Shown here: positions 2,826 to 15,492 of the stretch, piece after piece
Layout of the letters: every line of letters starts with the position of its first letter
How positions within the stretch are numbered: position 1 is the stretch's first letter
NCBI GenBank assembly: GCA_020137815.1
Contig: CM035352.1
Coordinates: forward strand, 3,224,001 to 3,288,000
Origin: Hormiphora californensis
Lineage: Eukaryota; Animalia; Ctenophora
Reading direction: 5' to 3'
Length of the DNA: 64,000 nt
Notes under the pieces: generated by a model
The model's database searches: none
What the model was told of the DNA's origin: nothing
What the model saw: the letters and a program-made list of their open reading frames with translations, nothing else
Translations under genes and position numbers: made by a program

Positions 2826-5800
2826 TCAGAACATTCCCTTCAATCGGGCCTTCTCCTCCACCTCTTTCTGTTTCACGGCTGCACGGAGTTCTGACATCCG
2901 TTTCAGTGCTGGAAAATAGTAAAATATCAGATAAAATATCGGATTTTGGTCAGAGGTCTCTAAAAATTCTGGGCGTGGTGAGAGAGGGTCGAGCAGGGCA
3001 ACTCCTCTTGAGGGGAAATTGTTGTGTGAGTGGATGTGGATGCAAGGGTGGGTAAAGTGATACAAAGTTGAGTTGTGAAAACTATGCAGTATGCAAAGTC
3101 TCGGAATTCAAACGTGAAAATGTAGGCATCTACCTGGAGTACCCTAGCAGCAACAGCATCGTGTGGAATTGTTCATACGGACACAGGCGACTCAAGCTGC
3201 AAGCATCGTGATTCGTGACCCCCTCTTTTCTCTCTTTACAACACTAATCTTTCCCCTTACCTAAGTTGCTCTGAGAGGGGTCCACCCTGGCTAGCTCGGT
3301 CCAGTCCCGTTCCGCCTGTTCGATATTCCAGGAGCCAGAGTGGGCCGTGGCTCGACGGTAAAGTCCCTTCACATTTTCAGGATCCCGCTTTAGAACGGTG
3401 TTCAAATGCATGATGGCCGTTGTGTATTCTTTCTTGACTAGCATGACCTGAGGGGAGGAGGGTCAATGAAGGGAGGGAGAGAGAAATAAAGAATACAAGA
3501 ATTTAATCTATGGAATGCTGATATTGACGTCAATCGAATGCCTCCCGATGCTTTTAAAAAAGGCCAGAGAAAGAAAAACTACCAAATTTTTCTCAATCCT
3601 AATCAAAACTCGAACCATAACCAAATCCCACCCTCCTAACCTGACTATAATTCAGTAGGAGGGGTATCTTCATATCCTCTATTTTGTTCCACAGGTCTGA
3701 TTGTGGCTGTTCCCTCATTCCCAGCTGTTCTAGTGTCCCAATGGCCTTGGCATAATTGATTTCCGCCTTGTCCATGTTCTTAGCTTTGAAATGGTTGTTT
3801 CCTGTGGAGAGATAGAGATAGAGATAGAGAGAGAGAGAGAGAGAGAGAGAGAGAGAGAGAGAGAGAGAGAGAGAGAGAGAGGGAGAGAGAGAGAGCGAGA
3901 GAGGGAGAGAGAGAGAGAGAGGAGAGGGAGAGGGAGAGGGAGAGAGAGAGAGAGAGAGAGAGAGAGAGAGAGAGAGAGAGAGAGAGAGAGAGAGAGAGAG
4001 ATAGAGAGAGGGAGAGAGAGAAAGAGAGAAAGAGAGAGAGATAGAGAAAGTATGTGTTTCAGTGGGAAAGAGTAAACACTTGAAAGCGGAAAAAGGGTAG
4101 AGGAGGAGTGGGTGCTGGGAAGAAAACAAAACTCAGCTAGAGATGCCGGGTTTATGAACAACATGTACATGTACTTGTGAGGCTTGTGGGTAAAATGTAG
4201 TGATTCTAAAGAGAAAGAATGAATTGATTCAGACTGGGCGAAACTGTTGAGAGGTATGCTAACCTACCCTTTTCCCTGAGCTCTATAACAAGTGCATACT
4301 TTTCATCCTCACTCATTGTCCAAATCTGCTTGTTATACTGTCCCGGCTGTTCAACGGACATCAGATCAATCTCGAATATCAAACTAACACCCTGAAATTG
4401 GAATTATTTTGGAGAGAGGGTTGAACAAGTCAAGAATTATTAACAATTATATTGGTGCCATCGGTAAGGGAGGATGGGACAATGTTAACAACTCGATGGA
4501 AAAAGTAACAACTTTGTTTACTTTCTCTCATCTCTGCCGCTCTCTTTCTATCTCTCCCTGGTATTGGACGGAGGAAGAGAGACAGGGCCAGAGAGTGAGA
4601 GAGAGAGCGAGAGAGAGAGAGAGAGAGAGAGAGAGAGAGAGAGAGAGAGAGAGTGAGAGAGAGAGAGAGAGAGAGGGAGAGAGAGAGAGAGAGAGAGGGA
4701 GAGAGAGAAAGAGTGAGAGAGATGTTGCCACGGTTGTCTGGCAGTGAAAAGCACGTGTGACTGTGAGAGTGACACGAGACACACAAAAAACTGTCACGGG
4801 AGTCTTGAACATTTAAAAAAGTGATGACGCGCCTGCAGACACAAACAAAATGCCAGTCGGAAATTGATCAACGAGAACAGAAAACTAAACCACATAAAAC
4901 CACCATTAAAACCAACATACAAACCACATAAAACCAAACCATCCCAAACCACTTACCGTTAATTTATCCAGGTCATGGTATCCGGTTGATTGACTTCCGC
5001 AACATGACTGACGTACCACTGCATCCTTATTATCCTTTTTCTTTTGGATGTCCCTCAGAGTTTTAGAGAGTTTCGCATAACCCATACATTTCTGAAGCAA
5101 GGTGGGGAATATGGTTAGGACTAGAACGAGAGCTGTGAAAATGGAGCAAATAAAGTAGGAAATCTAATAAAATATATGGTTGCAAAACAAATATCACTCA
5201 CATCGGGTTGGCAGAAAAACTTGGACCTCTCCCCAGGTCTCATCGATTTAACCCCATTTTCCCACGATTCGAGGGAAAAATTATGTCCAAAGATAAGCTC
5301 AAATGGTTCGTCCCAGGCGCGACTGTCATCAACAAGGGTCTGGTCAGCATCATTGATGTACGTTCGAAAGTGGAAGATGGCCTGAAGATGGTTTTAACAA
5401 GGATTGAAACGGCAAGGTATTGTCAATGTGTGTAGTAGTGGGCTATGCCTGCTCTACAGTGATCAGTGGGTCTCTCTCTATATTTAGGGCCGGGACAATT
5501 CTGTATTGAGAGCAAAAACAACTAGCCTCACGCAGTCTCGGAGGTGTACAAAGTAGAGTAGTGAACAGGGCGCGCGCACGGCAAGGTCTCTCACCGGCCC
5601 TGGGTGAAAAGTTTTGTGGTCTCCCACCTGGATAAGCATGTGAAAGACCTCAGGGATCGGGGTAAACAAAAACTGGGGTGGCTCAGAGACAAAAGTTGTT
5701 GTAGGTTATGTGGAGACTGTTCTAACTTCTGTCTAAGAGTCACCAGGCGCCTAAAAAAGTGATCGAAAATGTAAAACATACCTTGGTATCCTTCTGGTAG

Positions 5801-5880
5801 TCTGGTAAAGGGCCCTTTCCGGGATACTGAATATCCTTGTGAATTCCCCGGCCAATATTGTGCACACTTGGGTCAATCAT
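2826..5880 (-). CDS. AIP: AH receptor-interacting protein (AIP/AIPL1 family; FKBP-like domain + TPR co-chaperone), 7 exons
   Basis: Exons 5782-5880, 5202-5381, 4957-5091, 4268-4391, 3641-3801, 3261-3447, 2826-2908, all GT-AG with consistent phases. Motifs GKGPLPDYQKDTKAIFHF, VDDSRAWDEPFELIFG, SCCG, LIFEIDL, PLLLNYSQ, NVKGLYRRA. Confidence 0.93.
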
Positions 5881-14367: not shown

Positions 14368-15492
14368 GTGAGTTACTTCTTAGACATAACGCTGCGAAAT
14401 GGAAAATAACTTGAGGTTTCTAGGATAGTAATAAAACGGCTAGCGCCTAGCAGGGCACCTGGTTGGCCTTTGAACTTTTTTACGGATTGCTAAACATTTT
14501 GGCCTTCGCTTCAGATATGTATGCCTAAGCTAGGCGAAGCTAGGTTGTCCGTTGTTTTCGTTGCAAGAAAAGAGGTAAAATTTTGGTCAAAAAATGAAAA
14601 TTTGGGCGATTTCTGAACGACGCGAACGACAAAATTTTGGGCGCGCGGCGTAAGAAAACGTATTTTTGGCAGCGTTTTAAATCATTTTTTCGCGCGTTAC
14701 GACGAAAGTCAACTTTATTTGTGCGCGATATTTTTCAAAATTCCACTGCCTGCACAGCTCAGATTTCACTTTGAAGTCACATTTTTAAAAAATGCTCAAA
14801 ACAAGCTCAGATGGTCAGAAAGTTGAAAAGTGCTGCCTTATCCCGTGCTGGGGGCCAGGCGCCAGCAGCGTTTGCCAAGTTAGAAAGGCCTTAAAACCGA
14901 TGGGCCCACTTGAGGGGCCTATGCCCCTTACACCCGCTGTGGGGGCCAGGTCCCGGAGTTTCAACTCGTGGCAGAGTCATCAGACCCTGGACACACTTGG
15001 GCTGCCGAGAGCCGAGCATCGCCCCTGTTAGAGTTAGGGTAAGGGCTATACCTGTATCTGATGAACAGCTGGTACAGCTGTTCAAAGTGTGAATCACAAG
15101 CATCGTTTATGAGGGGATGTTGAATGTTGATTTTAAATTTACATTATAAATTCTGTTTTAAACTTGTAAACTTTAGGGTCGGGATAGGGCTTTGAAAAAC
15201 AAATTATCGCCGGTTAAGTGGTTTAGTGGTTAGAATCAATTTATGTGTATCTTTTTGACTTCAGGTTTTTCTGAGGATAGTGAGGTGCATAGATGTTCAC
15301 TTTCAGTGCCCACGTTCGTAAAATTGTGTCTTGGTCATAGAACATTACATTTCGCTGATTAAATAATTCACTGCAATTAGATTAATGATTCCATGTAACC
15401 GGTAATTGCTTTACCGTGTGGTAGTCTGCCGTTTACCACGACAAAATTACGTGTACCTCACACACTACCATTGTTCATATTTGCCTAGCTAG

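What the first reader, a model, noticed from the sequence alone, without database searches (positions are those of the whole stretch)
2826..14420. Candidate five-gene operon (FBXL4-GNAT-NDUFAF2-ORC2-AIP) resolved by spliced-leader trans-splicing
Seen: five co-oriented genes with stop-to-ATG gaps of 201, 130, 136 and 357 bp. Each ATG is preceded by a pyrimidine tract + AG with no obvious upstream donor: ttttccatttcgcAG (FBXL4), ttttactcccAG-7nt-ATG (GNAT), ctaac..ccctctttttaAG-5nt-ATG (NDUFAF2), tttcctctgaatctAG-4nt-ATG (ORC2), tttctcccAG-8nt-ATG (AIP). The spacers are U-rich on the sense strand. Known: this is how nematode and tunicate operons are built, and ctenophores use SL trans-splicing. 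Inference: one polycistronic transcript from a promoter at ~14.4-15 kb couples mitochondrial (FBXL4, NDUFAF2), replication (ORC2) and chaperone (AIP) genes.
Basis: partly seen in the sequence, partly recalled or inferred. Interest (0 to 1): 0.8.

Follow-up and report, generated by a model that had tools for sequence, protein, structure and literature searches.

The report
Comb-jelly leader-spliced gene cluster, likely operon
In a comb jelly, five housekeeping genes sit head to tail 130-357 bases apart with a sixth hidden in an intron, and two inner genes receive the animal's spliced leader at the predicted spots, so the first four are likely transcribed together as an operon.

Summary
The gaps (201, 130, 136, 357) and AG-to-ATG spacings are exact. 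RNA contigs from two studies carry the ctenophore spliced leader joined at the GNAT and ORC2 acceptor AGs. Pleurobrachia bachei gene models keep the order. In Bolinopsis, ORC2 and AIP lie on different scaffolds, and the ORC2-AIP spacer has promoter-like CG motifs. A polycistronic precursor or single promoter is not shown, and leaders sit on at least 56% of Hormiphora long reads, so a leader alone does not prove an operon. Best reading: a four-gene core operon (FBXL4-GNAT-NDUFAF2-ORC2), with AIP and the cathepsin likely driven separately (0.55). Leader-resolved operons are known in other animals; my searches found none described for ctenophores. The scan noted a similar cluster elsewhere in this genome (e1-10649461).

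The parts
14641..14730 (.). Candidate promoter: CpG peak with three CG-alternating motifs, 250-330 nt upstream of the FBXL4 acceptor
   Evidence: CpG o/e 2.25 in bin 14601-14800, the highest of 75 bins from 2001 to 17000; promoter role inferred
14392..14393 (-). FBXL4 candidate trans-splice acceptor AG (untested)
   Evidence: not covered by RNA
12637..14367 (-). FBXL4-like gene, intronless, 576 aa
   Evidence: named relatives; RNA pieces
12443..12444 (-). GNAT trans-splice acceptor AG, leader joined here
   Evidence: X1 contig fits 12273-12444 with 0 differences, then 18 loose letters equal to the leader's 3' part
11923..12435 (-). GNAT acetyltransferase gene, intronless, 170 aa
   Evidence: an X1 contig runs 58 nt past the stop to 11865
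11798..11799 (-). NDUFAF2 candidate acceptor AG (untested)
11127..11792 (-).
   Evidence: PF05071; NDUFAF2 versus NDUFA12 not tested
10995..10996 (-). ORC2 trans-splice acceptor AG, leader joined here
   Evidence: X6 contig fits 10861-10996 with 0 differences, then 19 loose letters equal to the leader's 3' part
6238..10990 (-). ORC2, 8 exons, 414 aa once the extra base at 10552 is left out
   Evidence: 68-69% identical to 4 ctenophore-type ORC2 proteins; introns 2, 3, 4 seen spliced in X4
7738..9894 (-). ORC2 intron 4 (2157 nt), host of the cathepsin gene
   Evidence: GT-AG ends; X4 joint skipping 2157 nt, 67 letters on the shorter side
8243..9607 (-). Nested, same-strand, intronless C1A cathepsin with I29 propeptide and two ShK-like domains, 454 aa
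   Evidence: RNA contigs; 95% identical to the P. bachei copy
9617..9746 (-). Three candidate acceptor AGs before the cathepsin (9745, 9672, 9617) and a TATA-like stretch near 9640
   Evidence: acceptor scores 4.2, 2.2, -3.3; TATA-like stretch read by eye; use untested
5958..5995 (.). Two CG-alternating motifs in the ORC2-AIP spacer, candidate AIP promoter
   Evidence: no CpG peak in this bin (o/e 0.67); role inferred
5889..5890 (-). AIP candidate acceptor AG (untested)
2826..5880 (-). AIP, 7 exons, 322 aa
   Evidence: 71% identical to Bolinopsis AIP, 96-98% to Pleurobrachia-type rows

Best explanation
GNAT and ORC2 messenger RNAs receive the comb-jelly spliced leader at the AG just before their start codons, and FBXL4, GNAT, NDUFAF2 and ORC2 are likely copied as one RNA from a likely promoter near 14.7 kb that leader splicing would cut into single-gene messages, while AIP and the cathepsin nested in ORC2 intron 4 likely have starts of their own. 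Shown: gene anatomy, leader addition at two inner genes, removal of the cathepsin-bearing intron from ORC2 RNA, same order in P. bachei. Inferred: shared transcript, promoter position, leader use at FBXL4 and NDUFAF2, separate starts for AIP and the cathepsin. Mechanism: 3'-end cleavage of the upstream message leaves a short T-rich stub ending in an AG with no donor, which takes the capped leader.
For: Leader joined at 12444 (X1, study P1, 18 of 18 letters) and 10996 (X6, study P3, 19 of 19 letters); read on the minus strand both equal the 3' part of the Hormiphora leader printed in PMC8527503, with the AG shared (compared by hand). A 13-nt leader motif has no exact or one-mismatch match in the 64 kb; 2 two-mismatch hits against 4.84 expected, so no local leader exon. 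The three core gaps are 201, 130 and 136 nt including the upstream 3' UTR, under the 250-bp cut-off used for chaetognath operons and near the C. elegans median of 156 nt. One X1 contig (depth 2.8) runs 58 nt past the GNAT stop, leaving 65 nt before the NDUFAF2 AG. The 130- and 136-nt gaps are T-rich without a good donor, the anatomy of the tested Hydra RFC140-flp spacer. The three core gaps lack the CG motifs that cluster before FBXL4 and occur before the mind bomb gene. P. bachei models fuse FBXL4+GNAT+ORC2 exons 2-4 and cathepsin+ORC2 exons 5-7+AIP, in window order.
Against: The leader was on 56% of Hormiphora Iso-Seq reads, a lower bound, so a leader does not mark an operon gene. Each leader junction rests on one contig (depth 5.9 and 4.5). 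Promoters could lie inside the upstream coding sequence. No genome was held, so how common such gaps are here is unmeasured. P. bachei is a very close relative, so shared order says little about selection; positions of FBXL4, GNAT and NDUFAF2 in lobate ctenophores were not obtained. The CG-motif argument is post hoc, from 23 sites in one window. No AATAAA lies in any of the four spacers, so the 3'-end signal is unidentified.
Confidence: 0.55

Rival explanations
1. Tightly packed single genes. Each gene has its own compact or coding-embedded promoter and gets the leader on a short outron, as many non-operon genes of trans-splicing animals do.
For: Leader use is pervasive in Pleurobrachiidae. 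In Ciona and Oikopleura one leader serves both operon and single genes. The genes share no evident pathway. ORC2 and AIP are on different scaffolds in Bolinopsis.
Against: Promoter, outron and upstream 3' UTR must share 130-136 nt, with 65 nt left after the GNAT contig. The core gaps lack the CpG and CG-motif signal seen before FBXL4. The comparable Hydra spacer had no promoter activity.
Confidence: 0.28
2. One promoter drives everything, AIP included, and the cathepsin is cut out of the same precursor by leader splicing inside ORC2 intron 4.
For: All six genes are co-oriented. AIP has a good acceptor (score 2.6) and the cathepsin two (4.2, 2.2) without a strong donor in the stretch before them other than the intron's own. 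The order is kept in P. bachei.
Against: CG motifs in the ORC2-AIP gap. AIP unlinked from ORC2 in Bolinopsis. A TATA-like stretch before the cathepsin (by eye). The cathepsin belongs to a recently expanded Pleurobrachia-type clade and its nearest lobate relatives are off the ORC2 scaffold, so it arrived later and may have brought a promoter.
Confidence: 0.15
3. The AGs are ordinary cis acceptors of 5' UTR introns, or the cluster is an assembly or annotation artefact.
For: A donor-like site lies 138 nt before the GNAT AG. The assembly has errors, such as the extra base at 10552.
Against: Leader letters, not genomic letters, precede the AG at GNAT and ORC2. An independent assembly gives the same order.
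Confidence: 0.02

Closest known systems
Ctenophore spliced-leader trans-splicing and nested intronic genes, Hormiphora californensis (PMC8527503; passages and Results parts 1-2 of 3 read; supplements not readable)
   Same: [quoted passage not shown]
   Different: That paper's main text has 0 occurrences of 'operon' or 'polycistron' and maps no leader to tight clusters.
Hydra RFC140-flp operon (PMC3273482; passages read)
   Same: Non-bilaterian; short spacer with T-rich stretch, pyrimidine tract and AG; intronless downstream gene takes a leader.
   Different: Two genes, and the lack of a spacer promoter was shown by reporter; here four to six genes and no such test.
Chaetognath, Ciona and Oikopleura operons with no operon-specific leader (PMC12460157, PMC7986045; passages read)
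   Same: Housekeeping genes, gaps under 250 bp, leader shared with single genes. The four-gene core meets the chaetognath paper's working definition (gaps under 250 bp, at least one leader-bearing gene).
   Different: Those calls rest on genome-wide gap and leader counts, not available here; Ciona operons mostly have no spacer.
C. elegans operons and hybrid operons with internal promoters (PMC4138322; two passages read)
   Same: Median gap 156 nt; downstream genes may also have an internal promoter, as proposed here for AIP.
   Different: Nematodes use a dedicated SL2-type leader for downstream genes; only one leader 3' end was seen here and no first-gene leader could be compared.

Membership tests
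Leader-resolved animal operon | Co-oriented genes with short gaps | tested here: met
   201, 130, 136 nt for the core; 357 nt to AIP
Leader-resolved animal operon | Leader joined to downstream genes | tested here: met
Leader-resolved animal operon | Precursor RNA that spans neighbouring genes | tested here: inconclusive
   Low-depth contigs only; none of those listed bridges a gap, and holes in contigs prove nothing
Leader-resolved animal operon | One upstream promoter and none in the gaps | not testable with these tools
   Only composition hints; needs CAGE, ATAC or reporters
Leader-resolved animal operon | Gaps are short relative to the genome-wide distribution | not testable with these tools
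   No genome held
Leader-resolved animal operon | Linkage kept in relatives (supporting, not required) | tested here: inconclusive
   Kept in P. bachei models for 5 of 6 genes, NDUFAF2 skipped by the model; ORC2-AIP not kept in Bolinopsis; upstream three genes unplaced in lobates
Nematode SL2-type operon | Dedicated leader for downstream genes | tested here: inconclusive
   Both downstream junctions carry the common leader's 3' end; only 18-19 letters seen and no first-gene junction
Parallel nested intronic gene | Whole gene inside one intron of a host on the same strand, host spliced across it | tested here: met
   Cathepsin 9607-8243 within 9894-7738; X4 joint skips the 2157 nt
Papain-family C1A cathepsin | I29 propeptide and Peptidase_C1 domain above Pfam cut-offs | tested here: met
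   PF08246 26.1 bits (cut-off 24.4), PF00112 185.3 bits (cut-off 20.7); activity not tested

The most novel reading that the evidence does not exclude
Comb jellies have true operons, and this one has a gene inside a gene: the cathepsin has no promoter and is released from ORC2 intron 4 by leader trans-splicing, so one precursor yields either ORC2 or cathepsin, or both from exon and intron. Leader capture would then be the general route by which new copies landing in introns get expressed, explaining the many same-strand nested genes of Pleurobrachiidae.
Probability: 0.15. Interest if true: 0.8.

Novelty: new member of a known kind. Interest (0 to 1): 0.5.

Why it matters
Ctenophores are known to trans-splice, but five literature searches found no description of operons in them (listings seen), and two key genome papers have no 'operon' in their main text. 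Derelle et al. 2010 could not be read and may discuss it. An operon here would add the phylum to nematodes, tunicates, Hydra and chaetognaths and bear on whether operons follow leader splicing wherever it arises. The locus is a compact test case: four short spacers for reporter assays, two with mapped leader junctions, and a recently inserted nested gene that poses the open question of how same-strand nested genes are processed. It also explains fused P. bachei gene models.

Tried and rejected
Whole-genome background: no genome held. RNA: 7 of 10 listed runs were laid (X1-X6, X9); all are contigs with small shares. No laid contig covered the FBXL4 AG (4 runs), the NDUFAF2 AG or the cathepsin AGs (7 runs), and none listed bridged a gap; these holes are no evidence either way. 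One search showed 24 of 117 loose-end rows and 31 of 285 pieces. Contig depth was not used to rank genes. The 20 loose letters at 9579 are not a leader: they lie inside the cathepsin coding sequence and look like a sequencing adapter (recalled). Loose ends at 10827-10859 and 7875-7993 come from a low-complexity stretch and a repeat. Metagenome scan with NDUFAF2 gave 1 locus with a 23-residue match, treated as spurious. FBXL4 and GNAT relatives from other ctenophore-like sources carried no positional names. A second P. bachei AIP model (P0153) is 96% identical to the window's and groups with it, so it is not a deep paralogue. ORC2 as a pseudogene was rejected: two runs from two studies lack the extra base and the frame opens. 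Poly(A) signal search found no AATAAA in the four spacers. Earlier-finding look-ups by place and sequence found nothing on this locus.

Full report
Anatomy. On the minus strand the window holds FBXL4-like (14367-12637), a GNAT (12435-11923), an NDUFA12-family gene (11792-11127), ORC2 (10990-6238, 8 exons) and AIP (5880-2826, 7 exons), with GT-AG ends at all 13 modelled introns. A sixth gene was missed: an intronless papain-family cathepsin with two ShK-like domains (9607-8243) lies on the same strand inside the 2157-nt fourth intron of ORC2. ORC2 exon 2 is out of frame as assembled; contigs of X3 and X4 lack the base at 10552, and without it ORC2 reads 414 aa with no stop and is 68-69% identical to 4 of 4 ctenophore-type ORC2 proteins tested.

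Organism. The closest named relatives are Pleurobrachia bachei gene models, 84-100% identical per segment, then Mnemiopsis and Bolinopsis. The window is from a Pleurobrachia-type comb jelly; the species was not determined.

Is the sequence pattern above chance? With a simple acceptor model from the 13 cis introns, the five AGs score 2.7, 1.2, -1.0, 0.6 and 2.6, against -1.1 to 6.3 for real acceptors and a median of -3.7 for 129 other intronic AGs. Shuffle P values are 0.024, 0.022, 0.14, 0.063 and 0.024. T-richness exceeds the intron level (0.34) only in the two shortest gaps (0.45, 0.43). A donor-like site exists in the FBXL4-GNAT gap (12581, score 8.0). The sequence signal is real but modest.

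RNA evidence. Ten runs were listed, all contigs with small shares; seven were laid. An X1 contig (study P1, depth 5.9) fits 12273-12444 with no difference and continues with 18 letters absent from the locus. An X6 contig (study P3, depth 4.5) fits 10861-10996 with no difference and continues with 19 such letters. Read on the minus strand, both equal the 3' part of the Hormiphora leader given in PMC8527503, the final AG being shared with the genomic acceptor (compared by hand). A 13-nt leader motif has no match better than two mismatches in the window, fewer than chance. GNAT and ORC2 are therefore trans-spliced at exactly the predicted AGs. An X4 contig (RNA status a guess by the tool, but it shows three GT-AG joints) skips all 2157 nt of intron 4, so ORC2 is spliced across the cathepsin. 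An X1 contig extends 58 nt past the GNAT stop and ends 65 nt before the NDUFAF2 AG.

Conservation. Two P. bachei models are fusions: sb|3461914 joins FBXL4, GNAT and ORC2 exons 2-4; sb|3461674 joins the cathepsin, ORC2 exons 5-7 and AIP exons 2-5. Order and nesting are thus shared with this close relative. In Bolinopsis, ORC2 is on a 23,028,209-nt scaffold and AIP on a 26,206,493-nt one (scaffold told by its length). The nearest lobate cathepsins are on scaffolds other than ORC2's in both Bolinopsis (26.2 versus 23.0 Mb) and Mnemiopsis (14.6 versus 20.9 Mb). In a FastTree of 27 rows chosen from the 120 listed hits and their clusters, the window's cathepsin sits in a 9-row clade (support 100) with P. 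bachei and unnamed rows. The nesting is probably a recent insertion of one family member. FBXL4, GNAT and NDUFAF2 could not be placed in lobates. PMC8527503 reports little shared gene order between Hormiphora and Mnemiopsis in general, so a break is expected either way.

Promoter hints. CpG o/e peaks at 2.25 in 14601-14800 with three CG-alternating motifs. Two such motifs lie in the ORC2-AIP gap and one before the mind bomb gene; none lies in the three core gaps; 23 occur in the window. PMC12221973 (passages read) reports a GC-rich motif at many ctenophore promoters, but its letters are in a figure and I could not compare them. This is a post hoc hint that AIP starts on its own.

Mechanism. 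Most likely a promoter near 14.7 kb drives one RNA through FBXL4, GNAT, NDUFAF2 and ORC2; 3'-end cleavage in each gap leaves a short T-rich stub whose AG takes the leader (0.55). The shared RNA and promoter are inferred. The main rival is separate compact promoters with ordinary leader addition (0.28), since at least 56% of Hormiphora long reads carry the leader and single genes share the leader with operon genes in tunicates. A single six-gene unit that also releases the cathepsin from the intron gets 0.15.

Comparison and novelty. It works like the Hydra RFC140-flp operon and meets the working definition used for chaetognath operons, but the two defining tests, spanning RNA and single promoter, were inconclusive or out of reach. 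Five searches (listings seen) showed no paper describing ctenophore operons; PMC8527503 and PMC12221973 have no 'operon' in the main text; in the 10 passages seen of PMC4824033 none assigns operons to ctenophores; PMC10282587 passages cover leaders and nested genes only. Derelle et al. 2010 was not held and the Hormiphora supplements were unreadable; either may bear on this. Same-strand nested genes are already reported as common in Hormiphora, and this window has a second case in the mind bomb gene. An unreviewed note of this scan describes another leader-bearing cluster in the same genome; I did not test it.

Verdict. A real, partly RNA-confirmed trans-spliced cluster and a good candidate for a ctenophore operon, with a nested gene as its most interesting open point. 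New member of a known kind; interest 0.5.

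Noticed in passing
window 55235-56443 (-): Intronless ORF of about 400 aa with a hydrophobic start and a weak PAN match, on the same strand between exons of a mind bomb gene (about 49.2-62.9 kb): a second parallel nested gene.
   Followed up: partly
window 10552: One extra base shifts ORC2 exon 2; absent from RNA contigs of two runs, so likely an assembly error.
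   Followed up: yes
window 12567-12636: Short repeat-like stretch abutting the FBXL4 stop; similar letters occur near 6562, 7515, 16881 and 56480. It carries the donor-like site at 12581.
   Followed up: partly
window 7883-7992 and 19668-19777: 110-nt element, 99% alike in inverted orientation, with many RNA contigs laid on it; one copy is in ORC2 intron 4 just downstream of the cathepsin.
   Followed up: no
window 14373-14387 (-): Four-codon upstream ORF between the FBXL4 AG and the first in-frame ATG; relatives P0122 and P0123 begin aligning only at 14310, so the true start may be 14340.
   Followed up: no
P0148 (P. bachei sb|3461674): The model repeats the first 182 residues of the cathepsin, suggesting a tandem partial copy or an assembly duplication in that intron.
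   Followed up: no
window 22220-23617: 609-nt inverted repeat, 96% complementary, arms 180 nt apart.
   Followed up: no
window 24671-25042 (+): Sestrin (PA26) exon; the gene points away from FBXL4.
   Followed up: no
window about 28000-43500: Long G, C and A runs, with GC skew up to 0.95 at 41-43 kb; looks like poorly polished sequence.
   Followed up: no
window 905-1369 (+): Last exon of an unidentified gene converging on AIP, 1.46 kb from the AIP stop; no Pfam match.
   Followed up: no
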